Positions 1,977-47,139 of a DNA stretch of 64,000 nucleotides are shown one piece after another; positions within the stretch are counted from its first letter, which is position 1, and the number at the start of each line of letters is the position of its first letter. The notes under the pieces are model-generated. The model was given only the letters and a program-made list of their open reading frames with translations, had not been told where the DNA came from and did not search any database. Origin of the DNA: an uncultured Clostridium sp. Lineage in GTDB: Bacteria; Bacillota; Clostridia; TANB77; CAG-508. The position numbers and the translations under genes were made by a program. The stretch lies in the NCBI GenBank assembly GCA_946548575.1, contig CAMNPT010000001.1, positions 48,282 through 112,281 on the forward strand. Direction: 5' to 3'.

Positions 1977-3188
1977 CTATAAATAATTCCTTGGATCTTG
2001 TCTACAAGCATATGTTCCTGGACTAGTTCTCACTTCGAAATGTAAGTGTGGACCTGTTGAATTTCCCGTTGAACCAACTCTCATTATTTGTTGTCCTTGT
2101 TTTACTGTATCTCCTGCAGATACTGTTCTTGAACCATCTTGTCCATGTGCATATAGTGTATATAGACCATTATAATGTGCAATTAATATGTAATTTCCAT
2201 AACTTCCACTTAATCTTGTTGATGTTACAACATATCCATCTGCTACTGCATATACTGGTTGACCATTTATACCACCTGTTCCAAAATCAACAGCTCCATG
2301 AAAATGACCACTTTTATAATACATACCTGTTGTTATAGTTGTATATCCAGATGGTACAGGGTAAATAAATCCTGATGAGCCCGCAGATGTTGGAGTTCCA
2401 CTTGAACCTGATTTACCTGAATTTGATGATCTTCTTGCAGCTTCTTCTTGTGCTCTTTTTATAGCTGCTTGTGCTGCTTGAATTTGACTATCTATTGATT
2501 TATTTGCCTCTCTTAATTCATCTATTTGTTGTTGTAATTTTTTCTCATCTTCAGATAATTTTTCCACTTGTTCATCTTTCTCAGCTTTTGCAGTTTTTAA
2601 TTGTACTGTTGCACTTTGTTTACTAGCTTTAGAAGTATCTAATTCTCTTTTACTGTTTTCTAAATCTTCTTTAGCTTTTTGTATTTCCTCTTTTTGTTTT
2701 TGAATCTTTTCTAATAATTCAGTATCTTTTGTTGTTACTTCTGATATTAAATAATAGTTTGAAATTAAATCTGTTATACTATCAGAAGATAAAAGGAAAT
2801 CTAAGTAAGATGTTTCCCCTGCTTCTTGCATAGTAACTAATCTTGACTCTAGTAATTCCTCTTGATTTGTATAATCCTCTTGTGCCTTATTTAGTTTTTG
2901 TTCTGATTCAGATATCTTGTTGTTTAAATTACTAATTTTTGCATCAAGTTCATCAATTTGCTTTTGATAATCATTAATTTGATTATTAAGTTTGTTTACT
3001 TCATCTACAGTTTTATTTTTTTGTTCTGTAACTTCTTCTTTTTTCTCGTTAGCTTCATTAATTTTTTCCTGATTTTCTTGTTTTTGACTATTTAATTGAC
3101 TAGTACTTGCAGCTAAAGAAACTCCTCCTTGCATTAACATTATTAATACTAAACAAACCCCTAAAAATTTTAAAACTAAACTTTTCAT
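1977..3188 (-). CDS. M23 family metallopeptidase with N-terminal coiled coil (PcsB/EnvC-like)
   Basis: signal peptide, long coiled coil, C-terminal M23 motifs HGAVDF...GSTGNSTGPHLHFEV. Confidence 0.8.
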   Translation of the reverse strand: MKSLVLKFLGVCLVLIMLMQGGVSLAASTSQLNSQKQENQEKINEANEKKEEVTEQKNKTVDEVNKLNNQINDYQKQIDELDAKISNLNNKISESEQKLNKAQEDYTNQEELLESRLVTMQEAGETSYLDFLLSSDSITDLISNYYLISEVTTKDTELLEKIQKQKEEIQKAKEDLENSKRELDTSKASKQSATVQLKTAKAEKDEQVEKLSEDEKKLQQQIDELREANKSIDSQIQAAQAAIKRAQEEAARRSSNSGKSGSSGTPTSAGSSGFIYPVPSGYTTITTGMYYKSGHFHGAVDFGTGGINGQPVYAVADGYVVTSTRLSGSYGNYILIAHYNGLYTLYAHGQDGSRTVSAGDTVKQGQQIMRVGSTGNSTGPHLHFEVRTSPGTYACRQDPRNYL

Positions 3189-3218
3189 AAGTTCCTCCTA
3201 TTTTTACTTTTACCCATT

Positions 3219-4497
3219 TTAATTTTGCGTATTAGTATTTTGTGTGTCATTTTGTTCATCTGTTTTGTTTTCATTTTTCTCTTCGTCTTTTTTGCTAGCA
3301 TCTGGTATTAAACCATTTGTTATGTATGGCATTGGATCTGTAACAACCCCATTTAGCCTTACTTCAAAATGTGCATGTGCACCTGTAGAATATCCTGTTG
3401 AACCAACCTTTAGTACAGATTCTCCTCTTTTTACAGTTTGTCCGAACTTCTACTAAAATTTCTGAACCATGTGCATATAAAGTAGAAACTCCTCCTCCAT
3501 GGTCTATTATTACCATATTTCCATAAGCAGAATTGAACGCTGCTTTTGTAACAATTCCATCATTTGCAGCTATGAAATTAGCTCCCATTGGCGCACTGAT
3601 ATCTACACCTGTATGTAATTTTGTATAATGTAATATTGGGTGAAATCTCATCCCATATTTTGAACTTATTCTTGTATAACCCGGAACAGGCCAAGCAAGT
3701 TCTCCACCTATATATTTTGAATCTATTCCTTCTAAAGCTTGTGCTAAGATTTCTCTATTTATTTCATTAAATCTTGCATTATACTCATCTATTTGAGTCT
3801 GTAATTCTTTTTCTTGATCAGATAATTTTTCAATAAAATTTTGTCTAACTGTTTTTGTATTTTCAAGAATTTTGGCTGTTTTTGTTTGATTTGATTTTAT
3901 TGTACTTAAATTATTTTGTCTATTTTCAATTTCTTTTTTTGATTTTTCAATTTCTTCTTTTTTTGTTTGCATTTCCTCTAATAATTCACTATCTCTAGTT
4001 GCAAGTTCTGTTATAAGGAAATAATTGGATAAAAACTCAGAAACACTTTTAGAACTTAAGATAACATCTAAGTATTGTGTATCACTAGATTCATAAACTG
4101 CAATCAATCTACTGTCTAGTAATTTTTTTTGTTTTTTAAAGTTTTCTTCAGCTACATTTAATTTAGCTTTTACTTCATCCATTGTACTTTGTAATTTTAC
4201 AATTTCAACATTTAGTTCATCCAATTCTTGTTGTGATTTTTCTATTTTTTCATCCAACTTTTCAATTTGTTGTAGATTTTGTGACAATTCACTTTGAACA
4301 TTTTCTAATTCATCACTTTTTTCATTTATTTGTTCTTGTAATTTTTTTTGTTCATCTTGTATGTTTGTTTGTCCTTCACTATCTTCAGCATAAATATATG
4401 TAAAAATACTAAAACTACAAATTATAAAAGCTAAAAATATACATAAATTTTTATTCATATTCTCCCCATTAATTAATAAATGATATTTATTTTTCAA
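3219..4497 (-). CDS. second coiled-coil M23 metallopeptidase, disrupted by a single-base frameshift (extra base at + strand 3444)
   Basis: ORF 3364..4497 ends in nonsense tail; alternate frame continues VEVGQTVKRGESVLKVGSTGYSTGAHAHFEVRLNGVVTDPMPYITNG to a stop at 3219; gene sense reads gtt-C-gga. Confidence 0.75.
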
Positions 4498-39255: not shown

Positions 39256-39756
39256 CTATATTTCATAATAATATATGTTTTCAGGTAGACTTAATCTTTT
39301 ATATATTCCGTCTTTAATATATTTTCCACCAATATGTTTATAAAACTCATTAGATGGGTTTCCTTTAAGACATGCTATAATCATCTTGTCACATCTTAAT
39401 TCTTTTAGTTCTCTTATCGCTTCTTCTACTAATCGTCTTCCAAATCCATTTCCTTTATATTTTTTTATTATATATAAAGCAAAAATTTCTCCACAGTTTT
39501 TAAATTGTTCATCCTCAGATACTCCAAAATTCACAAATCCAACAACTTCATTATCTATTTCTAAAACAAATTGATGATTGTTATTTACATCAAATTTCTC
39601 ATATGAAATTTGAGCTCTTTCATTTTCATTATTTTTTAATTCTTCTAAAAACCAATCTGGAACAATACCCTTATATGTTTCATTCCAAGCTATTGTTACA
39701 ACATGAGCTACATCTTTGCAATCTTTCTGTTCTCTTTTTCTTATTAAATAGTTCAT
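39256..39756 (-). CDS. GNAT family N-acetyltransferase
   Basis: acetyl-CoA binding motif GNGFGRRLV; 166 aa. Confidence 0.7.
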   Translation of the reverse strand: MNYLIRKREQKDCKDVAHVVTIAWNETYKGIVPDWFLEELKNNENERAQISYEKFDVNNNHQFVLEIDNEVVGFVNFGVSEDEQFKNCGEIFALYIIKKYKGNGFGRRLVEEAIRELKELRCDKMIIACLKGNPSNEFYKHIGGKYIKDGIYKRLSLPENIYYYEI

Positions 39757-39768
39757 ATAACTTCTCCT

Positions 39769-41028
39769 TTACTTGAATTTTATATTTACTTCTCCGTTTT
39801 GAGATATGATTATACTATCTATGTTTTTTAATAAAATATCTCTTGTTAACGTATCAGTTTTACTTCTTTTAAATTTTCTATTTAATTCATTCAACACAAC
39901 TTCAGTTAATTTATCTTTTCTAATTGAATGGCTTGTACAAGAACCATTTCTTACATAAGATGTACAATGATAATATTCATAATTCTTTACTTTTCTTAAT
40001 GTAAATGAACTTCCACAATTTGCACACTTTAAAAAGCTATAAAATAAATCTTTTTCCTTATTATTTCTAGCAGCTTTATTTTTGTTTAGTATTTCTTGTA
40101 CTTGAGCAAACTTTTCTTTTGATATAATTGGCTTGTGATGATTTTCAGTTATTATCCATTCATCTTTATTTGTTGTAATTAGTTTATGAGTGCGATAATT
40201 TTCTACCTTCTTCTTTCCTTGAATTAAATCTCCTGTGTATACTCTATTTTGAAGTATTACATTAATCATTTTTACATTCCACTTTTTGTCTACTTGTATA
40301 TTGTTATTTTTTGTTTTATATAAAGCAGGTGTTAAAACATTTTTCTTATTTAATTCATTAGCGATTTCATTTGCTGTTTTTCCTTCTATTATATCATTAA
40401 ATATTTTAATAACATTCTTCGATGCTTCTTCATCTATTATTAATTTATGTTTATCTTTTGGATTTTTTAAATATCCATATGTAGCAAAAGTTCCAATAAA
40501 CTCTCCATTTAATCTTTTAGTTAGCAATGCACTTTTAACCTTTTTAGAAATATCTTTTGCATAGGCATCGTTTAATAAATTCTTAAAAGGAACAATAAGG
40601 TTGTCCATTGAATCCGGATTTTCAAAACTATCTATATTTTCTATTACTGATATAAATCTAATATTTAATGCAGGAAAGATATTTTCAAAATACATGTCCG
40701 CTTCTATGTGACTTCTTGCAAATCTAGATAAATCTTTTACAATTATACAATTAAACTTTTTATTTTTCATATCTTGTAATAGTCTTCTAAATCCTGGTCT
40801 ATTAAAATTAGTACCACTATACCCATCATCAATATAGTAATCTACTAATTGTAAATCACTTTTATTAACAATATATTGTTCTATTAATTCTCTTTGATTA
40901 ACTATACTATTTGATTCCATATTTTCATTATCTTCTTTTGACAATCTTAAATATGCTGCTACATTCCAATTTGATATTTTAATCACTCCTATAATTTTAA
41001 TATAAACATATAATGTCGTATACCTCAA
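39769..41028 (-). CDS. large serine recombinase (resolvase domain + recombinase domain + zinc ribbon)
   Basis: N-terminal catalytic region VAAYLRLSKEDNE...NQRELIEQY, resolvase core, C-terminal CANCGS...YYHCTSY zinc ribbon; start codon uncertain (probably a non-ATG start near 40975). Confidence 0.8.
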   Translation of the reverse strand: MRYTTLYVYIKIIGVIKISNWNVAAYLRLSKEDNENMESNSIVNQRELIEQYIVNKSDLQLVDYYIDDGYSGTNFNRPGFRRLLQDMKNKKFNCIIVKDLSRFARSHIEADMYFENIFPALNIRFISVIENIDSFENPDSMDNLIVPFKNLLNDAYAKDISKKVKSALLTKRLNGEFIGTFATYGYLKNPKDKHKLIIDEEASKNVIKIFNDIIEGKTANEIANELNKKNVLTPALYKTKNNNIQVDKKWNVKMINVILQNRVYTGDLIQGKKKVENYRTHKLITTNKDEWIITENHHKPIISKEKFAQVQEILNKNKAARNNKEKDLFYSFLKCANCGSSFTLRKVKNYEYYHCTSYVRNGSCTSHSIRKDKLTEVVLNELNRKFKRSKTDTLTRDILLKNIDSIIISQNGEVNIKFK

Positions 41029-41092
41029 TCAGCCTTAAACCTATAGTTTACTTTTTCAGTCATTATTCTAATAAAATGAGTAACTAATAATT

Positions 41093-41548
41093 TTATTTTT
41101 TAAAATGTTTATTCATTAGTTTTTCTATTAACTCTTCTTTTAATTTCTCATTTTCAGTATTTTCCACTAATTTAATTATTTTTTCTTCATTTTCATGGTA
41201 AGATAAATCTTTAAAATAATTTTGTTTATTTTCATTTGATTTGTTAAATATGTATAAAATTGTAGCAGATAATAAATCTATAAAACAACCACAAATTGTT
41301 CCAGCGACCAATGTTTCTGTAATTTTTAATGCATAAATAACAAAACTCGCTATTATTAATAAAATTCCAACCCATATCATCCAGATAGCATTTTTTACTA
41401 TCATTTTATTTTGTTGTATTTCTTCTTTATGATACTCTTCCGAACTTAGTTTAGGTGAGCCTTTTATTTTTACCCTATTGCTTTCTTTGGTTAATTTATT
41501 GTTATCCGATATTTCAAATTTATTTTGTTTCGCCATTATCTTCCTCAC
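41093..41548 (-). CDS. hypothetical membrane protein
   Basis: 151 aa, two central TM helices, charged termini. Confidence 0.4.
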   Translation of the reverse strand: MRKIMAKQNKFEISDNNKLTKESNRVKIKGSPKLSSEEYHKEEIQQNKMIVKNAIWMIWVGILLIIASFVIYALKITETLVAGTICGCFIDLLSATILYIFNKSNENKQNYFKDLSYHENEEKIIKLVENTENEKLKEELIEKLMNKHFKK

Positions 41549-41807
41549 TTTTTATTTCGTTTTCAAGATCATCTAAACATCCTAATATAAGTCCATTTAT
41601 AAAAACTGTATTTCCACAATTTCTACATGATACGGGTATTAATGGTTGAAATTTTCCTCCTAATTTCATTTCCTTTTTTTCTCCAACTTCTATCGGTGTA
41701 ACAATTGAAGTATCCACTGTCCATTCCGCTGATTGGCAATATGGACAATTAACTCCTTTCCATTTTTCATTTAATTTTTTTAATAATATTTCATTATTTA
41801 TTTTCAT
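41520..41807 (-). CDS. hypothetical zinc-ribbon protein
   Basis: two CxxC pairs (CPYCQS...CRNCGN); 95 aa; overlaps the downstream membrane-protein gene. Confidence 0.45.
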   Translation of the reverse strand: MKINNEILLKKLNEKWKGVNCPYCQSAEWTVDTSIVTPIEVGEKKEMKLGGKFQPLIPVSCRNCGNTVFINGLILGCLDDLENEIKSEEDNGETK

Positions 41808-41861
41808 AAGCCTCTCCTTATCATTTATTGAATTTTATTTTTTAATTTTATAAACACTAAA

Positions 41862-42404
41862 TTATTTTATCCATTCTTCTTTTAATAATCCAGTTATATA
41901 TTCATCTTCATAGTTACCTGTTGCTTGTGATATAATTTTTTTTCTTCTTATACCTTCATCTTTGTATCCAAACCTTAATTGCATTTTGTGTGATTTTTCA
42001 TTTTCTTTAAAGTAACCATTTTCCAATCTTCTAAGTCCAAGTTCTTCAAAAGCATATTTAATTCTCGCCCCAAATGCTTCTGTTCCATAACCTTTTCCTT
42101 GATATTTTTCGTTTAACCAAATCCCACCACCTGCTGTACCATGTACATTGCTTATATTAGTTAATTGAGTCCCACCTATTACCTTGTTTTCTTCTTTTAG
42201 AACAATAGCAAAGTTATATAAATTGTTTTCAATAGATTTAGTTATAAAACTTTTAGCATCTTCTTCTGTATATGGATATGGTACTTGTGCTAGCCACTTT
42301 GTTACATTTAAGTTATTTAATCCTTCAACTACATCATTAACATCATCTAATCTCCATTTTCTTAATATTAATCTATCTGTTTCTATTATTATATCTTCAT
42401 TCAT
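41862..42404 (-). CDS. GNAT family N-acetyltransferase (RimJ/RimL-like)
   Basis: QGKGYGTEA acetyl-CoA motif; 4 nt overlap (ATGA) with the upstream DinD-like gene. Confidence 0.7.
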   Translation of the reverse strand: MNEDIIIETDRLILRKWRLDDVNDVVEGLNNLNVTKWLAQVPYPYTEEDAKSFITKSIENNLYNFAIVLKEENKVIGGTQLTNISNVHGTAGGGIWLNEKYQGKGYGTEAFGARIKYAFEELGLRRLENGYFKENEKSHKMQLRFGYKDEGIRRKKIISQATGNYEDEYITGLLKEEWIK

Positions 42405-43270
42405 CTTTTTTTACCTTCTTTATCTCCGATTTGTTTTTGTTCATCTATGTACTTATAGTTTAAACTATTACTTTTAGATATAGCAGACTTTTTAGTTTCT
42501 TTTTCGTATAAGTCTTTTGCTCCTTTTGCAACTCCTCCACCACGCTTAGCTACATTCAAGTTTTCTTTTAATCCCTGTGGATGCTCTTCTCTTGCTATAT
42601 CTCTTGTTGCAATCTCACCTATATTAGTAAGTGCCACTTCTATATCTGTCATATTATCTCTTAAAGATTCCTTCCTAAGGCCTTTTAATTTTTTATATTC
42701 GCTAGCCTTCATTCCAGACCAACCTTTGTATATTTCATTTGTTAAAAGTGCATATTCAATTGGCTTAGTTATTCCTCCCTCTTTCCAAACATCAGTAAGT
42801 TTAAATCTATCTACAATACCATTTAATCTTGCTTTTATCCATTCATCACTATATCCTTTATTACGATAATATTGTACGGCTCTATTAACTGCAATTTCTG
42901 GATCAAATACTTCATCAATTCTCTCACTACCTAAATTTGCAAGCCAAACTTTAAAAGGTTCTGCTTTGCTACTTGGAACAGATTCAATAAGTCTAAAAAT
43001 ATCACGAGTTGTCATTGCATCTCTTAAACGCATTTTTCCGTCTGGAGCTAACATTTTCAACTGACTACAATTTGTAGTCACTTCACTACCTTCTTTTTTT
43101 AATCTATTTTTTAAAACAGACCAATATTTTCTTGGTTTAGGACTATCTGTTAAAGCATTTATAACATCCACAACACTAAAAAAATATTCTTCTTTTTCAC
43201 TATCCCATACACTTCTAATTTCTTTATCTTCAAATAAATTTGAAATCGTTTCTATTTTGTTATTATCCAT
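42401..43270 (-). CDS. Bro-N domain protein, DNA-damage-inducible protein D (DinD)-like, paralog 1
   Basis: start MDNNKIETISNLF with AGGAGG RBS; Bro-N-like N-terminus (IRSVWDSEKEEYFFSVVDVINAL); C-terminal half near-identical to paralog 2. Confidence 0.6.
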   Translation of the reverse strand: MDNNKIETISNLFEDKEIRSVWDSEKEEYFFSVVDVINALTDSPKPRKYWSVLKNRLKKEGSEVTTNCSQLKMLAPDGKMRLRDAMTTRDIFRLIESVPSSKAEPFKVWLANLGSERIDEVFDPEIAVNRAVQYYRNKGYSDEWIKARLNGIVDRFKLTDVWKEGGITKPIEYALLTNEIYKGWSGMKASEYKKLKGLRKESLRDNMTDIEVALTNIGEIATRDIAREEHPQGLKENLNVAKRGGGVAKGAKDLYEKETKKSAISKSNSLNYKYIDEQKQIGDKEGKKR

Positions 43271-43305
43271 AAAATTCCTCCTTTCTAATTTATTTATTAC
43301 GCATA

Positions 43306-43324
43306 TCCCGTCGAATTCGACGGA
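43306..43324. promoter_or_regulatory. perfect palindrome CCCGTCGAATTCGACGG(A), copy 1, ~40 nt upstream of DinD-like paralog 1
   Basis: read directly; same motif at 43838 and 44905. Confidence 0.6.
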
Positions 43325-43331
43325 TTTAGTA

Positions 43332-43805
43332 TTAATCTTCAATCATATCTATCATTCTCATATGATATCCATTTCTTTCATAAAATTTTATTGCATTTTC
43401 ATTATATCCAAATACTGCAATCATTATTTTTTCACAGCCAATACTCTTTAAATAATCTCTCATACTTTCTAATAGTTTTTCACCTATATGCTTACCTCTG
43501 TATTCTTTTGAAACTACCAATTCTGTTATTCTTCCTCTTTTAGGTGCTTTAAAATCGAACCTAATTTCTTCATCGTTATTTACTATTCCAACTACTAGTC
43601 CAACAATTTTTTCATTTTCTTTAAATAGTAATATTTTTCCATTACATTTTTTAACCTCTTCAATAGTTTTTTCAAAGTATTTTTCTCTATAATCATCTCC
43701 AACAATATTATATCCTTCTTTGTCAATATCTGATAAATATTGTTGCAATTCTAGTAATAAATCTTTTATTTGTTCATTATAGTTTGGACTATATTCTATT
43801 ATCAT
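43332..43805 (-). CDS. GNAT family N-acetyltransferase
   Basis: RGKHIGEKLL acetyl-CoA motif; 157 aa. Confidence 0.7.
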   Translation of the reverse strand: MIIEYSPNYNEQIKDLLLELQQYLSDIDKEGYNIVGDDYREKYFEKTIEEVKKCNGKILLFKENEKIVGLVVGIVNNDEEIRFDFKAPKRGRITELVVSKEYRGKHIGEKLLESMRDYLKSIGCEKIMIAVFGYNENAIKFYERNGYHMRMIDMIED

Positions 43806-43837
43806 TATAATAAATCCTTTCCTTTTCGTTTTTTAAT

Positions 43838-43855
43838 CCATCGAATTCGACGGGA
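43838..43855. promoter_or_regulatory. palindrome copy 2 (CCATCGAATTCGACGGG), ~35 nt upstream of GNAT 43332..43805
   Basis: read directly. Confidence 0.55.
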
Positions 43856-43904
43856 TATTATCTATTTATATCAAATCACGAAAGATGTTAAGTTTATTAA
43901 GTGT

Positions 43905-43994
43905 TCATTTTTGAACACTTTTAGGAAGTTTTGCATTTGCCCATTCTTCACAGTTGATGTTTGTACTTGGCAACTTTTCTTTTTTATCTTCCAT
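43905..43994 (-). CDS. small ORF A (29 aa, MEDKKEKLPSTNINCEEWANAKLPKSVQK), member of a 3-copy small-protein family
   Basis: RBS AGGAAAG; paralogs at 45582..45701 and 46318..46437 differ mainly at codon third positions. Confidence 0.5.
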   Translation of the reverse strand: MEDKKEKLPSTNINCEEWANAKLPKSVQK

Positions 43995-43995
43995 A

Positions 43996-44868
43996 TTACT
44001 CACTTTCCTTTTTATTTCTATTATCAATTTGTTTTTGTTCATCTATGTACTCATAATTTAAACTATTGCTTTTAGATATAGCAGATTTTTTTGTTTCTTT
44101 TTCATACAAATCTTTTGCTCCTTTTGCAACTCCTCCACCACGCTTAGCAACATTTAAATTTTCTTTTAATCCCTGTGGATGTTCTTCTCTTGCTATATCT
44201 CTTGTTGCAATTTCTCCTATATTTGTGAGAGCGACTTCTATATCTGTCATATTATCTCTTAATGATTCTTTTCTAAGTCCTTTTAGTTTCTTATATTCGC
44301 TAGCCTTCATTCCAGACCAACCTTTATATATTTCATTTGTCAAAAGCGCATATTCATAATTATTTGTAATACCATTTTCTTTCCAAGTATCTGTCAATTT
44401 CTTTCTATTTAATATTCCATTTAATCTTTCTGAAATCCATTTATCACTATATCCTCTGTTTCTGTAATAATCTATCGCACGATTAACCGCTATCTCTGGA
44501 TCGAATACTTCATCTACTCTCTCTTTTCCAAGTGACGCTAACCACATTTTAAATGGTTCCGCTTTCGGAGATGAAACTGATTCAATAAGTCTAAAAATAC
44601 CTTTTGTATCCAAAGTGTCTGTTTCTCTCATTTTTCCATCTTGTGCTTTCATTTTCAACTGCACGATATTTTCGTGCAGTTCACTTCCTTCAGATTTTAA
44701 CTTTCTTTTTAAATCACTCCAATAATTTCTTGGAATATTACTATCTGTTAATGCACTTATAACATCTACGACACTAAAAAAATATTCTTCTTTTTCAGAA
44801 TCCCATACACTTCTAATTTCCTTATCTTCAAAGAGATTTGAAATCGTTTCTATTTTGTTATTATCCAT
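43996..44868 (-). CDS. Bro-N domain protein, DinD-like, paralog 2
   Basis: start MDNNKIETISNLF with AGGAGG RBS; 3' ~300 nt nearly identical at DNA level to paralog 1. Confidence 0.6.
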   Translation of the reverse strand: MDNNKIETISNLFEDKEIRSVWDSEKEEYFFSVVDVISALTDSNIPRNYWSDLKRKLKSEGSELHENIVQLKMKAQDGKMRETDTLDTKGIFRLIESVSSPKAEPFKMWLASLGKERVDEVFDPEIAVNRAIDYYRNRGYSDKWISERLNGILNRKKLTDTWKENGITNNYEYALLTNEIYKGWSGMKASEYKKLKGLRKESLRDNMTDIEVALTNIGEIATRDIAREEHPQGLKENLNVAKRGGGVAKGAKDLYEKETKKSAISKSNSLNYEYIDEQKQIDNRNKKESE

Positions 44869-44904
44869 AAAATTCCTCCTTTCTAATTTATTCATTACGC
44901 ATAT

Positions 44905-44921
44905 CCCGTCGAATTCGACAG
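44905..44921. promoter_or_regulatory. palindrome copy 3 (CCCGTCGAATTCGACAG), upstream of DinD-like paralog 2
   Basis: read directly; flanks identical to copy 1. Confidence 0.55.
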
Positions 44922-44992
44922 ATTTATATTAATATCAAACATTCTTTCTCTAATTTTGTTTTCAAAGGTCTCGGATTCGATACCTTTAAAAT

Positions 44993-45136
44993 TTATATTA
45001 CGTTTTTATCTATCCAATTTAAAAAATCTTTACTTGCATTTTTTATTTCATAATATGATATTTCTGCAACTTCATAGTCATGTATTTGTTTAATTTCATT
45101 TTCTATTTCTTTCTTATCACAAAGTGTTGTTGCCAT
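44993..45136 (-). CDS. possible small ORF (47 aa) immediately downstream of HD gene
   Basis: ATG 7 nt after the HD stop with no clear RBS; weak. Confidence 0.25.
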   Translation of the reverse strand: MATTLCDKKEIENEIKQIHDYEVAEISYYEIKNASKDFLNWIDKNVI

Positions 45137-45143
45137 AATAAAT

Positions 45144-45566
45144 TTATCCATTATAATTACCTCTCAATTTTTCTATTAAAATTTTTGCATCACAATATGT
45201 TTTTGATTCTTCTCCATATCTATTTTTTATATCTTCTAATCTTTTATCATATCCCACATCATTACCATATTTATCAATTTGCATATCTGCTTTATTTAAT
45301 ATTTCCAAAAATAATGATGTATATTCTGAATTTATATCTCCATGATAATAAACTTCTTTCCAATATTTATAATTATTTCTTTTTAGTATATCTCCACCTA
45401 TATGTGCGTGTTTTAAATTATCTCCATATTCATCATATCCAATATCATGATTAAATCCTAACACAAGTAAATCTTGTAATTCAAATTCATTCAAATTATA
45501 TCTTCTTCCAATTTCTATCATTTTTCTTGCAACTGCTATTGAATGTTTTAGTCTATCTTCATCCAT
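45144..45566 (-). CDS. HD superfamily hydrolase (small, 140 aa)
   Basis: HSIAVARK...GFNHDIGY...HAHIGGDIL HD motifs. Confidence 0.6.
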   Translation of the reverse strand: MDEDRLKHSIAVARKMIEIGRRYNLNEFELQDLLVLGFNHDIGYDEYGDNLKHAHIGGDILKRNNYKYWKEVYYHGDINSEYTSLFLEILNKADMQIDKYGNDVGYDKRLEDIKNRYGEESKTYCDAKILIEKLRGNYNG

Positions 45567-45581
45567 ATATTCTCTCCAATA

Positions 45582-45701
45582 TTATATTTTCATCAAAATA
45601 TGTAATATATTTAAAGCAATAATGTCTGTATTTTCAATGTTTTTAGGAAGTTTTTCATAAATCCGTCTCTCCCAGTTGATGTTTGTTTTATTCTCCTCCA
45701 T
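45582..45701 (-). CDS. small ORF B (39 aa, MEENKTNINWERRIYEKLPKNIENTDIIALNILHILMKI)
   Basis: RBS GAGGAAG; conserved TNINW/C...IY.KLPK.IEN core shared with ORFs A and C. Confidence 0.5.
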   Translation of the reverse strand: MEENKTNINWERRIYEKLPKNIENTDIIALNILHILMKI

Positions 45702-45794
45702 CTATATCACTTCCTCATTTTTACAATTCAATACTTTCTATATTCTAACATAAAAACAAGTGATTTTCAAATAATCACTTGCTTTTCATGATTT

Positions 45795-46244
45795 TTAACC
45801 TTTATATCCTCTTAAAAAACTATCTAATTCTTTTTCATTATTAAAAATGTTTTCAAATATATTATATAAAGTATCTGTTGCCTCATATTCACCGATAGCA
45901 TAGCATTTTTTTCCTAATCCGTATGCTATTCCTGATTCTATATGTGCGGCTTTTCCAGCTGGTAATACTAGTAATAAATTTCTAGAACTCTTTTCCCCTT
46001 CTAAATCTTGATTAAACAAATTTAAAACAACATCACTTTTTAGTCCTAAGGATTCAAATTCTGCTTGTTTTTCTTCCGGAGTTTGATTTTCATTACCATA
46101 TCCCCAACTGTCTTCATTTTTTAAGAAACAATAATAAGAAATATTATATTTATCAAATATATCACATATTTTTAAAATATTTTCCTTATTTCTAGCTCTT
46201 CCTGCTATAAAAAATTCGTATTTTTCCATAATCTTTTCCTCCAT
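45795..46244 (-). CDS. nucleoside 2-deoxyribosyltransferase-like protein (likely start MEKYEF at 46229)
   Basis: FFIAG...LLVLPAGKAAHIESGIAYGLGKKCYAIG resembles the PF05014 fold; RBS GGAGG. Confidence 0.5.
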   Translation of the reverse strand: MEEKIMEKYEFFIAGRARNKENILKICDIFDKYNISYYCFLKNEDSWGYGNENQTPEEKQAEFESLGLKSDVVLNLFNQDLEGEKSSRNLLLVLPAGKAAHIESGIAYGLGKKCYAIGEYEATDTLYNIFENIFNNEKELDSFLRGYKG

Positions 46245-46317
46245 AAATAATTTTTAATTTCTATTCAGAATTTCACAGTTATACAATTAAATATAAGTAG
46301 TTTTACATCAAATACGA

Positions 46318-46437
46318 AAAAATCTCGATGTAAAAAATTGAATGTTTTCAATAGTTTCAAGGAACTTTCTATAAATCGTTTTATCGCAGTTAATACTTGT
46401 ACTTGCACAACTTTTTTCATTATTCATTTTATTCACC
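46318..46437 (-). CDS. small ORF C (39 aa, MNNEKSCASTSINCDKTIYRKFLETIENIQFFTSRFFRI)
   Basis: RBS AAGGTGA; third member of the small-protein family. Confidence 0.5.
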
Positions 46438-46540
46438 TTATTTCCTTTTAAACTCTATTTTTATTTGCACCAATACGTTCAATATATTTTTTCAGATTCT
46501 ATTCCTAAATTCATATTTGTTTTCACTTCATAATTTTAAA

Positions 46541-46612
46541 AAAAATATAGAATATATGTATTTTTATTCTATATTTTATCCTATACTTTATTCTATACTT
46601 TGTCAATATTTT
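46541..46612. repeat. iteron-like cluster of TATAGAAT / TCTATACTTT repeats including an 8 bp inverted pair
   Basis: TATAGAATATATGTATTTTTATTCTATA then TCCTATACTTTATTCTATACTTTG; at the distal end of the co-oriented cargo array. Confidence 0.5.
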
Positions 46613-46638
46613 GTTAAAACAAATGTCATAAATCCATT

Positions 46639-47139
46639 TTATAATGTCCTATAATTATTTTTGTCAGCTCTATCATCTAATTTTCTATCAAATTGCTCAT
46701 TTGCATAAAACCAATCAGTTTTTTTATCTTTTGGGTGTGCTTTTCTTCCTTTATCTGCTAACATATCAAACAAAACTGCAATTGGTATAATCATTCCAAT
46801 TACTGACATAAATAAATTAAGATAAGTTCCTATTAAGTCTACATCACCTTCAACTGCAGCTAATAAAACTTGAACATTATTATATATATCTACTCCAAAA
46901 TACATTCCATAAGCTAGTAGATAAATTAAAGCTCCTACTAATTTTCTTTTTACTACTAAAACCATACATGCTAATGTAACAAATAGTAATCCTATTTCCA
47001 TTTCTAAATTTAATGGTGTTATTGCAAATTCCATATTCATTTGTGCAGTTACTGCTACCATTATTCTAGAAGCCCAAAATAATATCATAAACATAACTAA
47101 TAAATAAGTTGAGAAATTTTTCATTTGTTTTACCTCCAT
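46639..47139 (-). CDS. hypothetical membrane protein
   Basis: 166 aa, 4 TM helices, charged C-terminus. Confidence 0.4.
   Translation of the reverse strand: MEVKQMKNFSTYLLVMFMILFWASRIMVAVTAQMNMEFAITPLNLEMEIGLLFVTLACMVLVVKRKLVGALIYLLAYGMYFGVDIYNNVQVLLAAVEGDVDLIGTYLNLFMSVIGMIIPIAVLFDMLADKGRKAHPKDKKTDWFYANEQFDRKLDDRADKNNYRTL

What the first reader, a model, noticed from the sequence alone, without database searches (positions are those of the whole stretch)
43306..44921. Perfect 18 bp palindrome CCCGTCGAATTCGACGGG recurring three times upstream of island genes
Copies at 43306-43324, 43838-43855 and 44905-44921 each sit 35-45 nt upstream of a start codon (DinD-like 1, GNAT, DinD-like 2). A palindrome that is GC-rich for this genome and placed in this way suggests a shared dimeric repressor operator or a recombination site. 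It is not a Firmicutes LexA (Cheo) box.
Basis: seen in the sequence. Interest (0 to 1): 0.55.

Follow-up and report, generated by a model that had tools for sequence, protein, structure and literature searches.

The report
Orphan copies of defence-gene palindrome
The three palindromes are real but imperfect, and they are stray non-coding copies of a palindrome normally found inside KilA-N-type candidate anti-phage genes, where each gene keeps its own version, which points to a DNA site recognised by such proteins rather than an ordinary local operator.

Summary
Three copies exist (43307-43324, 43837-43854, 44905-44922), but none is a perfect 18-mer. Only TCGAATTCGA is shared perfectly, and copies 1 and 3 lie in one 0.9-kb duplication. 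They sit 36, 31 and 36 nt upstream of minus-strand starts, in a variable island of candidate defence genes.

The same 16-mer occurs in 109 viral contigs and in at least 120 genome stretches. Below about 60% GC, most hits lie inside one gene family, KilA-N proteins (PADLOC PDC-S22). There, 30 nt of coding sequence form a palindrome whose middle triplets differ between genes but stay complementary: 93.9% paired against 76.3% in shuffles, 0/500. The window copies match the version in KilA-N cassettes of sister islands over 18 nt. A fourth, decayed copy of another version lies at 44961-44990.

The window's own DinD-like genes (PDC-S13) carry a second kind of in-ORF private palindrome.

The closest known analogue is BstA and its cognate DNA element aba.

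Best reading: orphan protein-recognition palindromes sitting at cassette joints. Whether they function in this island is uncertain, because they are no better conserved than their flanks. A classical operator is weakly supported, and an att site for the serine recombinase is unlikely.

The parts
43303..43326 (-). Palindrome copy 1, CCG/CGG version. The sense strand reads AATCCGTCGAATTCGACGGGATAT. It starts 8 nt after the GNAT stop codon and ends 36 nt before the ATG of Bro-N/DinD-like gene 1.
   Evidence: The 18-mer TCCGTCGAATTCGACGGG is identical to the in-ORF palindrome of KilA-N genes in L156, L164, L188, L224 and L398.
43835..43858 (-). Palindrome copy 2, in inverted orientation. The sense strand reads ATATCCCGTCGAATTCGATGGATT, with one G.T position. 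It lies 31 nt upstream of the GNAT ATG and about 45 nt downstream of an inter-cassette repeat.
   Evidence: (I5)
44901..44924 (-). Palindrome copy 3. It is the duplicate of copy 1, with two T.G positions on the sense strand, and lies 36 nt upstream of the ATG (44868) of Bro-N/DinD-like gene 2.
44961..44990 (-). Fourth, decayed palindrome of a different version (GGT/ACC). It carries remnants of KilA-N codons: NINFKGIESETFEN compared with NPNFKGIEFDTFKN.
   Evidence: The same tandem arrangement is conserved in L116, L349, L354-L357 and L370.
42401..43270 (-). Bro-N / DinD-like gene 1 (PADLOC PDC-S13, E = 2e-113).
43996..44868 (-). Bro-N / DinD-like gene 2 (PDC-S13). It is 83% identical to gene 1.
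43332..43805 (-). GNAT acetyltransferase gene (157 aa), bracketed by copies 1 and 2. It is present or absent between palindromes in different genomes.
43059..43083 (-). In-ORF private palindrome of Bro-N gene 1. The sense strand reads AAGTGACTACAAATTGTAGTCAGTT and encodes EVTTNCSQL.
44657..44681 (-). In-ORF private palindrome of Bro-N gene 2 at the homologous position but with a different sequence. The sense strand reads AACTGCACGAAAATATCGTGCAGTT and encodes ELHENIVQL.
43890..44035 (-). Inter-cassette repeat with a small ORF (45 aa). One of three copies in the island; it precedes copy 2 and the GNAT gene.
   Evidence: (D4)
39769..41028 (-). Large serine recombinase at the downstream edge of the variable island.

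Best explanation
The three sites, plus a fourth decayed one, are non-coding 'orphan' copies of a defined palindromic DNA element. Its consensus is TTTAA(A/T)-NNN-RTCGAATTCGAY-NNN-(A/T)TTA(A/G)A.

SHOWN. The element's native home is inside the coding sequence of KilA-N-domain single-gene defence candidates (PADLOC PDC-S22, about 275-295 aa). In that family the 30 nt encoding F(K/N)xx(E/D)F(D/E)xx(F/I)(K/R) form a dyad. The core TCGAATTCGA and the outer TTTAAA arms are fixed. The middle triplets differ from gene to gene but remain complementary, and the encoded amino acids change with them. The window copies carry the CCG/CGG version. They are identical over 18 nt to the version in KilA-N cassettes of sister islands from low-GC gut bacteria, one of which (L398) also holds a DinD-like gene. 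In the window they lie in the leaders of two unrelated cassettes, at points where flanking sequence has been exchanged between genomes.

INFERRED, by analogy with BstA-aba. The element is a DNA site, read as a dyad or as an extruded hairpin or cruciform, that is recognised by the N-terminal DNA-binding domain of its cognate KilA-N protein. The variable triplets would give each gene a private version.

INFERRED for this island. No KilA-N gene was found in the window, so the copies could act only in trans on a CCG-type KilA-N protein encoded elsewhere, either as operator-like sites on the GNAT and DinD-like cassettes or as decoy/immunity sites. They probably arrived by recombination at the palindrome with a KilA-N cassette.

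My confidence in the identity (an orphan PDC-S22-type palindrome) is about 0.85. My confidence in the protein-binding mechanism is about 0.4. My confidence that the copies still function in this island is about 0.3.
For: Not chance: 0 of 100 shuffles give a match. The 16-mer is in 109 viral contigs, about 45 of them below 40% GC, and 58 of the 109 extend the palindrome by at least 3 bp. A control palindrome of the same composition is in 25 contigs, 1 of them low-GC, with no extension. A truncated sample of 120 genome stretches shows that below about 60% GC nearly all hits lie in one ORF family spanning Bacteroidota, Verrucomicrobiota, Clostridia, Bacilli, Nitrospirae, Methanoregula and Sulfurovum. 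A KilA-N gene spans the motif in 62 loci. That family is Pfam KilA-N and PADLOC PDC-S22, E = 1e-107 to 1e-140. In a sample of homologues retrieved through peptide patterns elsewhere in the protein, not through the palindrome's DNA sequence (34 distinct), 93.9% of cells are paired against 76.3% in shuffles (0/500). There are 76 double-sided changes against 25 expected (0/500). Slid registers reach at most 57.5% pairing, and 7 of 13 pairs are compensatory. The 18-mer of window copy 1 is identical to that in the KilA-N genes of L156, L164, L188, L224 and L398, and L398 also carries a DinD-like gene. A fourth palindrome of the GGT version retains KilA-N-like codons. PDC-S22 genes sit between the repressor and the integrase in Staphylococcus phage EW and in Streptococcus satellite phages, much as bstA sits downstream of cI. 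BstA has a KilA-N-like N-terminal domain and a cognate, DNA-based element overlapping its own gene (PMC8585504). The palindrome leads two unrelated cassettes independently: GNAT alone in L234, and DinD-like alone in L348, L359 and L405.
Against: No KilA-N gene is in the 64-kb window. Among close relatives the 18-nt palindrome is no better conserved than the 38-nt leader (4 variable sites in 18 nt against 5 in 38), and L347 has two hits in it. PDC-S22 is only a defence candidate, and its binding to the palindrome is untested. The protein does not hit the BstA model, and aba has terminal direct repeats rather than a dyad. Symmetric covariation is explained equally well by plain base-pairing in a hairpin, or by template-switch homogenisation of palindrome arms. 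In phages many orphan copies look like terminator hairpins.
Confidence: 0.45

Rival explanations
1. The copies are recombination scars or hot spots with no present function. Palindromes shared between otherwise unrelated DNAs give short homology and stall replication, so cassettes get joined there. On this view the window copies are leftovers of joins with KilA-N cassettes.
For: Flanks on either side are swapped while the palindrome stays. L359 and L405 differ on the left, L348 differs on the right, and the GNAT gene is present or absent between two copies. In Staphylococcus prophages the two flanks match different phages and break exactly at the palindrome. Some KilA-N genes are truncated at or near it. 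A KilA-N codon relic lies next to copy 3. The palindrome shows no extra conservation over its flanks, and it is decayed in L347.
Against: The distance to the ATG (30-36 nt) is kept in leaders that otherwise differ. Most deviations keep G.T pairing on the sense strand. The same element is kept intact in many unrelated phage genomes. The joint at copy 2 is not at the palindrome: homology starts about 190 nt upstream of it.
Confidence: 0.3
2. The copies act as an RNA hairpin in the leader or intercistronic RNA: a 7-8 bp GC-rich stem with an AAUU loop. It would stabilise or process the transcript, or weakly terminate transcription between cassettes.
For: All genes are on one strand, and copy 1 starts 8 nt after the GNAT stop. 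The centroid hairpin energy is about -10 kcal/mol. About 5 of 7 stem deviations in the non-coding copies are G.U on the sense strand. In phages the element occupies terminator slots: L074 compared with IME1318_01, the L005 group with a U tract, and the L006 group between convergent genes.
Against: There is no U tract on the sense strand in the window, and the only terminator-like call is on the antisense strand. Folding z-scores of the copy 1 and copy 3 regions are unremarkable, at -0.3 and -1.8. A functional terminator or stabiliser would not be expected in the middle of the KilA-N ORF. At the variable positions of the KilA-N palindrome, G.T is not favoured over A.C (3 against 5). GAA is never replaced by GAG at the centre, and in the Bro-N family the symmetry runs right to a single central base, which fits a DNA dyad better.
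Confidence: 0.15
3. This is the first reader's idea: the copies are the operator of a conventional dimeric repressor, encoded by the host or the island, that co-regulates the GNAT and DinD-like genes.
For: The site is a 16-18 bp GC-rich dyad placed 31-36 nt before three start codons. A shared upstream motif resembling TTGATAT.AAT is compatible with an extended -10 box placed so that the dyad would cover roughly +1 to +20.
Against: Pfam finds no HTH or other regulator among the island ORFs. There are no further copies in 64 kb. The promoter scan is no better than shuffles, at 53 hits against 58. DinD-like homologues at 71-81% identity lack the motif. The identical element occurs across phyla inside ORFs and between convergent phage genes. 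It shows no extra conservation.
Confidence: 0.07
4. The copies are the recombination (att-like) site of the adjacent large serine recombinase, which would move cassettes in and out.
For: A recombinase lies at the island edge. Island content differs between strains. The GNAT gene is bracketed by two copies.
Against: By established knowledge, large serine integrases need a non-palindromic central dinucleotide for polarity, and here the centre is AT. Only some joints carry the palindrome. Most cassette joints carry a different repeat of about 150 nt. The palindrome occurs widely without any such recombinase nearby.
Confidence: 0.03

Closest known systems
BstA abortive-infection protein and its cognate anti-BstA (aba) DNA element (Owen et al. 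2021, PMC8585504)
   Same: It is a single-gene defence protein of about 300 aa with an N-terminal KilA-N(-like) DNA-binding domain, encoded in the prophage lysogeny region. A short DNA element overlapping its own gene acts as DNA, and each homologue has its own cognate version. PDC-S22 shares the domain order, the size, the placement between repressor and integrase, and an element in its own gene that differs between homologues.
   Different: PDC-S22 does not hit the PADLOC BstA model. aba is 63 bp, lies at the start of the gene (29 bp upstream plus 34 bp of coding sequence) and has terminal direct CCCGCC repeats. Here the element is a 30-bp dyad about 190 nt inside the ORF. Neither an immunity function nor binding has been tested for PDC-S22. 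The window copies are outside any KilA-N gene.
parS inside spo0J/parB, and origins inside initiator genes such as ori-lambda within gene O (from my own knowledge, not tested here)
   Same: These are conserved protein-binding DNA sites embedded in the coding sequence of the protein that binds them, and kept at the nucleotide level across distant taxa.
   Different: Those sites are essentially invariant or are iterons. They do not show gene-specific symmetric variation, and they serve segregation or replication rather than defence.
Intrinsic (bidirectional) terminators and REP-type intercistronic hairpins
   Same: These are GC-rich stem-loops between co-directional or convergent genes. Several phage copies sit exactly where a canonical terminator sits in a related phage.
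   Different: Terminators and REPs have no sequence conserved across phyla and do not sit in the middle of ORFs. The window copies lack a U tract on the sense strand, and they are not abundant in the window.
Integron attC sites
   Same: These are imperfect palindromes at the boundaries of promoterless cassettes in co-oriented arrays, where structure is conserved more than sequence.
   Different: There is no tyrosine integron integrase here, the R''/R' consensus does not match, and there are no extrahelical bases. Only a minority of the joints carry the palindrome, and the array is in a low-GC gut bacterium next to a serine recombinase.

Membership tests
BstA-aba self-immunity system | The protein matches the BstA family model. 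| tested here: not met
   A PADLOC scan gives PDC-S22 for the KilA-N proteins and PDC-S13 for the window's DinD-like proteins. No BstA hit appears at E <= 0.01.
BstA-aba self-immunity system | An N-terminal KilA-N(-like) DNA-binding domain plus a C-terminal domain, about 300 aa in total. | tested here: met
   This is met for the PDC-S22 carriers of the palindrome: Pfam KilA-N with E = 1.6e-21 over residues 10-136 of 295. The window's own genes have a Bro-N domain instead.
BstA-aba self-immunity system | The gene is encoded in the prophage lysogeny region and expressed from the prophage. | tested here: inconclusive
   Placement between repressor and integrase is seen in Staphylococcus phage EW and in Streptococcus satellite phages. 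Many other copies are stand-alone chromosomal genes. Expression was not tested.
BstA-aba self-immunity system | A short DNA element within or overlapping the gene suppresses the protein, with cognate specificity. | not testable with these tools
   An in-gene element with gene-specific symmetric variation is present. Suppression and specificity need phage-challenge and binding experiments.
BstA-aba self-immunity system | The aba architecture: about 63 bp at the gene start with terminal direct repeats. | tested here: not met
   The element here is a 30-bp dyad about 190 nt inside the ORF. The aba sequence is taken from PMC8585504.
Operator of a dimeric transcriptional repressor | A dyad placed over or just downstream of a promoter. 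| tested here: inconclusive
   The dyad lies 31-36 nt before the ATG. The promoter scan is no better than shuffles. Only a weak shared motif resembling an extended -10 box lies upstream.
Operator of a dimeric transcriptional repressor | A cognate regulator is encoded nearby, or a regulon of sites exists. | tested here: not met
   Pfam finds no regulator among the island ORFs. There are no other sites in 64 kb. The whole genome is not available.
Operator of a dimeric transcriptional repressor | The site is conserved above its flanks among orthologous leaders. | tested here: not met
   There are 4 variable sites in the 18-nt palindrome against 5 in the 38-nt leader. The motif is absent from homologues at 71-81% identity.
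Intrinsic terminator | A GC-rich stem-loop followed by a U tract on the transcribed strand. | tested here: not met
   The stem is present. The sense strand continues AUAUGCGUAAU or AUUAAAAAACG, and the only scan hit is on the antisense strand.
REP-like dispersed element | Many copies dispersed in intergenic regions of the genome. | tested here: not met
   All copies in the 64-kb window lie within 1.7 kb of one another in the island. The rest of the genome is not available.
Integron attC | An integron integrase, R''/R' core sites and extrahelical bases. | tested here: not met
   There is no tyrosine integrase; the recombinase is a large serine type. The arms are fully paired and do not match RYYYAAC/GTTRRRY.
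att site of a large serine recombinase | An imperfect dyad around a non-palindromic central dinucleotide. | tested here: not met
   The centre of the dyad is A|T within GAATTC. The requirement itself comes from established knowledge of serine integrases.

The most novel reading that the evidence does not exclude
At least two families of single-gene candidate defence proteins carry a 'private' palindrome inside the part of the ORF that encodes their N-terminal DNA-binding domain. The families are KilA-N/PDC-S22 and Bro-N/PDC-S13. On this reading the palindrome is the cognate DNA (or extruded hairpin) ligand of the protein it helps to encode, a generalised form of BstA-aba self-recognition. Non-coding copies such as the three in this window, and those in Staphylococcus and other phages, would then be immunity sites or decoys that mobile elements carry to silence a matching defence protein.
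Probability: 0.25. Interest if true: 0.9.

Novelty: new variant of a known kind. Interest (0 to 1): 0.68.

Why it matters
If the palindrome is the cognate DNA ligand of KilA-N-type defence proteins, the one described case (BstA-aba) becomes a general design. The design would be a self-recognition site written into the defence gene's own codons, with a gene-specific version that changes the protein sequence along with it. This would make the unknown mechanisms of PDC-S22 and PDC-S13 directly testable through synonymous recoding, binding assays and decoy plasmids. It would predict a class of DNA-only anti-defence elements in phages and islands. It would also explain why unrelated phage modules and island cassettes are joined at identical short palindromes. 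For genome annotation, these palindromes should not be read as operators or terminators by default.

Tried and rejected
1. Coding explanation. The palindrome is in frame with an upstream extension of DinD-like gene 1 (KSVEFDG...). Copy 3 has stop codons just upstream, and a strong RBS plus ATG follow it, so I rejected this.

2. Synteny break at copy 2. I first read copy 2 as the boundary of the GNAT module. Alignment shows that homology starts about 190 nt upstream, at a small-ORF repeat, so I withdrew that reading.

3. Known RNA families. Rfam E-value scans of the island, of five KilA-N loci and of four DinD-like loci gave nothing relevant, only chance hairpin hits.

4. Literature. A search for the exact 16-mer, and for KilA-N with palindrome or hairpin terms, found nothing. 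PDC-S22 and PDC-S13 appear only in surveys, and no follow-up on aba turned up.

5. Consensus RNA structure of the inter-cassette repeat. RNAalifold predicted none.

6. A G.U-versus-A.C test to choose between RNA and DNA. It is confounded by coding constraints and is not informative at the variable positions.

7. A family-wide operator of DinD-like genes. I rejected this because only the closest homologues have the motif.

8. Solved structures. There are no sequence relatives in the PDB for either protein.

9. Cognate matching in Staphylococcus. Phage EW's KilA-N gene carries a CGT/GCG version, not the CCG version found as orphan copies in other Staphylococcus prophages, so this gave no support.

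10. Protelomerase, parS, dif, CRISPR-repeat and frameshift-signal readings. I considered these from memory and dropped them for lack of any matching feature.
Full report
OBSERVATION

A search for the 18-mer with up to 3 mismatches finds exactly three sites: 43307-43324, 43837-43854 and 44905-44922. They have 1, 2 and 2 mismatches, and none is expected in 100 shuffles. Only the 10-mer TCGAATTCGA is perfect in all three. A fourth site at 44971-44980 has one mismatch.

All genes here are on the minus strand. The palindromes lie 36, 31 and 36 nt upstream of the starts of a Bro-N/DinD-like gene (42401-43270), a GNAT gene (43332-43805) and a second Bro-N/DinD-like gene (homologous ATG at 44868).

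Copies 1 and 3 belong to one 0.9-kb duplication at 89-92% identity. The conserved unit is an asymmetric 24-mer, and copy 2 is inverted relative to the other two. The GNAT gene is therefore bracketed by inverted 24-mers that are 96% complementary (I5).

SETTING

The region from about 41.0 to 46.5 kb is a variable island. On one side lie conserved genes (IreB, RuvX, DUF1292 and a 166-aa membrane protein). On the other lie a large serine recombinase, then a GNAT gene absent from the sister contig L110, and a YlqF-type GTPase.

Metagenomic contigs that encode the identical GNAT protein show the same chromosomal slot with different gene content (RhuM, DUF1016/YhcG, AAA_18, LigT and others). They also show the GNAT-DinD pair in at least one unrelated context.

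PADLOC assigns the two DinD-like proteins to the defence candidate PDC-S13 (E = 2e-113).

Many cassettes are separated by a repeated element of about 150 nt that carries a small ORF. The window has three copies, and L111 has seven. The palindrome occurs at only some of the joints.

THE ELEMENT IS NOT LOCAL

The 16-mer CCGTCGAATTCGACGG occurs in 109 IMG/VR contigs with GC content from 25 to 73%. About 45 of them are below 40% GC. In 58 of the 109 the palindrome extends by at least 3 bp, typically as AAAC...GTTT. A control palindrome of the same composition occurs in 25 contigs, almost all of them GC-rich, with no extension.

A scan of species-representative genomes stopped at 120 stretches. Below about 60% GC, nearly all hits share flanks that translate to NNPxFKPVEFDGF+xQAG. 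This is one protein family. tblastn finds it spanning the motif in 62 loci and partially in 8 more. Pfam calls it KilA-N, and PADLOC calls it PDC-S22 with E = 1e-107 to 1e-140 over the full length.

THE KEY RESULT

I collected KilA-N homologues through peptide patterns taken from elsewhere in the protein, not through the palindrome's DNA sequence (one of the six patterns, WEQFNNPN, lies immediately upstream of the palindrome). I then extracted the 30 nt that encode F(K/N)xx(E/D)F(D/E)xx(F/I)(K/R).

In 34 distinct genes this stretch is a near-perfect palindrome centred on GAATTC. Examples:
- TTTAAACCCGTCGAATTCGACGGGTTTAAA (FKPVEFDGFK)
- TTTAAAGGTGTCGAATTCGACACCTTTAAA (FKGVEFDTFK)
- TTTAATTATGGCGAATTCGCCATAATTAAA (FNYGEFAIIK)
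- TTTAAACTGGTCGAATTCGACCAGTTTAAA (FKLVEFDQFK)
- TTTAATTTGGTGGAATTCCACCAAATTAAA (FNLVEFHQIK)

The formal counts are:
- 93.9% of cells paired, against 76.3% in column shuffles (0/500).
- 76 cells with changes on both sides, against 25 expected (0/500).
- A covariation score of 0.466 against 0.155.
- At most 57.5% pairing in slid registers.
- 7 of 13 pairs compensatory.

The amino-acid pairs that co-vary (P/G, G/T, L/Q, V/H, Y/I, S/G) are exactly reverse-complement codon pairs. The constraint is therefore on the nucleic acid, not on the protein.

Which strand and which nucleic acid are involved is not resolved. Overall, G.T exceeds A.C by 25 to 11, but this is driven by conservative or synonymous codon changes. 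At the variable positions the counts are 3 against 5.

LINK TO THE WINDOW

The 18-mer of window copy 1, TCCGTCGAATTCGACGGG, is identical to the in-ORF palindrome of KilA-N genes in low-GC gut MAGs (L156, L164, L188, L224). Those genes sit in arrays with the same inter-cassette repeat, RhuM genes and a serine-recombinase fragment.

L398 carries both a DinD-like gene and, 1.8 kb further on, a CCG-type KilA-N gene.

The fourth window palindrome (44961-44990) is of the GGT/ACC version. It retains flanking KilA-N-like codons: NINFKGIESETFEN compared with NPNFKGIEFDTFKN. It is conserved in tandem with copy 3 in several contigs.

No KilA-N gene is in the window itself.

BEHAVIOUR AS A JOINT

Among 57 distinct leaders of DinD-like homologues, only the closest relatives (about 87% identity or more) have the palindrome.
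- In L359 and L405 the sequence to the left of TAAAT|CCG is unrelated to that in the window.
- In L348 the left half and its upstream repeat match the GNAT leader, the GNAT gene is absent, and the sequence to the right differs.
- In L234 the palindrome leads the GNAT gene with no DinD-like gene after it.
- In Staphylococcus prophages the two flanks of the palindrome match different phages and break at it. In phage IME1318_01 the same slot holds an ordinary terminator hairpin with the same U tract.
- Some KilA-N genes stop or start near the palindrome.

The joint at copy 2 is not at the palindrome. Within close relatives the palindrome is no better conserved than its flanks.

SECOND FAMILY

The two DinD-like genes in the window each contain a 25-nt in-ORF palindrome at the homologous position, but with different sequences. 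One lies at 43059-43083 and encodes EVTTNCSQL. The other lies at 44657-44681 and encodes ELHENIVQL.

Across 35 distinct homologues this holds generally:
- 85.7% of cells paired, against 61.4% in shuffles (0/500).
- 119 double-sided changes, against 43.5 expected (0/500).
- A covariation score of 0.684 against 0.218.
- At most 35% pairing in slid registers.
- 10 of 12 pairs compensatory.

In many members the symmetry runs right to a single central base. This fits a DNA dyad or cruciform better than a simple RNA hairpin.

COMPARISON WITH WHAT IS KNOWN

The only described system of this kind that I found is BstA (PMC8585504). BstA is a prophage abortive-infection protein with a KilA-N-like N-terminal domain, encoded downstream of cI. 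It is silenced by aba, a 63-bp DNA element that overlaps the start of its own gene. aba acts as DNA, and each homologue has its own cognate version.

PDC-S22 shares several features with BstA:
- the domain order and the size;
- the position between repressor and integrase in Staphylococcus phage EW and in Streptococcus satellite phages;
- an element in its own gene that differs between homologues.

It is not a BstA family member, and the element has a different architecture. The claim is that it works like BstA-aba, not that it belongs to that family.

Other comparisons fail on defining features, as set out in the membership table. These are terminators, REP elements, attC sites, serine-recombinase att sites and a classical operator.

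CONCLUSION

What the sites are is well supported: orphan copies of the PDC-S22 private palindrome, sitting at cassette joints in a defence island.

How the element works is inferred. Most likely it is a DNA dyad, or an extruded hairpin, recognised by the cognate KilA-N protein.

Whether the three copies still do anything in this island is open. I put about 0.3 on function in trans, about 0.3 on an inert scar, about 0.15 on an RNA hairpin role, and less than 0.1 on a classical operator.

Noticed in passing
window 43059-43083 and 44657-44681 (minus strand), and homologues L347-L426: The Bro-N/DinD-like (PDC-S13) genes carry a 25-27 nt in-ORF palindrome at a fixed position (aa ~64-72). It differs between the two window paralogues and across the family but stays symmetric: 85.7% paired against 61.4% in shuffles, and 10 of 12 pairs compensatory.
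   Followed up: yes
L267-L346 and many of L001-L266 (KilA-N / PDC-S22 genes), e.g. L267 1690-1719: A 30-nt palindrome centred on GAATTC lies inside the KilA-N coding sequence. It occurs across bacterial phyla and archaea and shows compensatory covariation that changes the encoded amino acids with it. I found no description of it in Rfam or in the paper library.
   Followed up: yes
window 43890-44035, 45578-45749, 46291-46456 (minus strand); L111 (7 copies), L110, L234, L156, L233, L247: A repeat of about 150 nt lies between cassettes. It has an RBS, a small ORF with a conserved start (MNENKTNINW / MEDKKEKLPSTNINCEEW), a variable and partly palindromic middle, and a conserved tail (..ATTGAAAA..TTGAGATTTTTACATAT). 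Several synteny breakpoints fall in it. No consensus RNA fold and no Rfam hit were found. It might be a cassette boundary, a promoter or a recombination site.
   Followed up: partly
window ~41030-46640, compared with L110, L113, L114, L116: The same chromosomal slot, between the DUF1292/166-aa membrane protein genes and a large serine recombinase, holds different sets of small co-oriented genes in different metagenomic contigs (RhuM, DUF1016/YhcG, AAA_18, LigT, HD, GNATs, Bro-N). It is an integron-like cassette array in a genome of about 26% GC.
   Followed up: partly
window 39256-39756: A GNAT gene (166 aa) sits between the serine recombinase and the YlqF-type GTPase in the window and in L116, but is absent at that place in L110. 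The region beyond the recombinase is therefore variable too.
   Followed up: no
window 44993-45151: A 52-aa ORF matches only the C-terminal half of CutA1 (profile positions 53-98 of 99) and overlaps the end of the HD-domain gene (45144-45566). It is probably a gene fragment.
   Followed up: no
window 43899-43920; L110 5884-5909: A perfect 9-11 bp hairpin, AAGTGTTCA(N4)TGAACACTT, lies at the stop codon of the 45-aa small ORF, about 45 nt upstream of palindrome copy 2. The copy 2 region as a whole folds with a z-score of -3.6.
   Followed up: partly
L363, L365, L366, L367, L418, L391, L368, L369, L375 (leaders of DinD-like genes) and L247 ~1850-1890 and ~3190-3230: A different conserved leader motif, AGGAATTAGAGAGGTGATTACGAC(N4-6)TTAA(A/C)CCC, precedes more distant DinD-like genes and other cassettes. 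It has no Rfam match at E <= 0.1 and might be an uncharacterised cis-regulatory RNA.
   Followed up: partly
L010 ~2990-3040, L120 (phage IME1318_01) 120-170, L121 (phage StB12) 30-70, L074: In Staphylococcus prophages the palindrome lies between the lysin gene and the att end. The flanks match different phages and break exactly at it. IME1318_01 has a canonical terminator hairpin in the same slot, with the same downstream U tract.
   Followed up: partly
L428 1195-1425 (Mannheimia phage vB_MhS_3927AP1) and phage 1152AP2: A 76-aa truncated KilA-N gene ends three codons after the palindrome-encoded peptide (..NPNFNLVELHQIKCNN*). It may be a retained fragment consisting of the N-terminal domain plus the palindrome.
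   Followed up: no
aba sequence quoted in PMC8585504: The BstA aba element contains TTTAAC(N15)GTTAAT, which resembles the outer arms TTTAAC...GTTAAA of the PDC-S22 palindrome. This may be coincidence.
   Followed up: no
L110 11431-11486: A 56-nt near-perfect palindrome with 24-bp arms lies between the mini-RNase III gene and a P-type ATPase gene in a sister contig. I did not examine it in the window.
   Followed up: no
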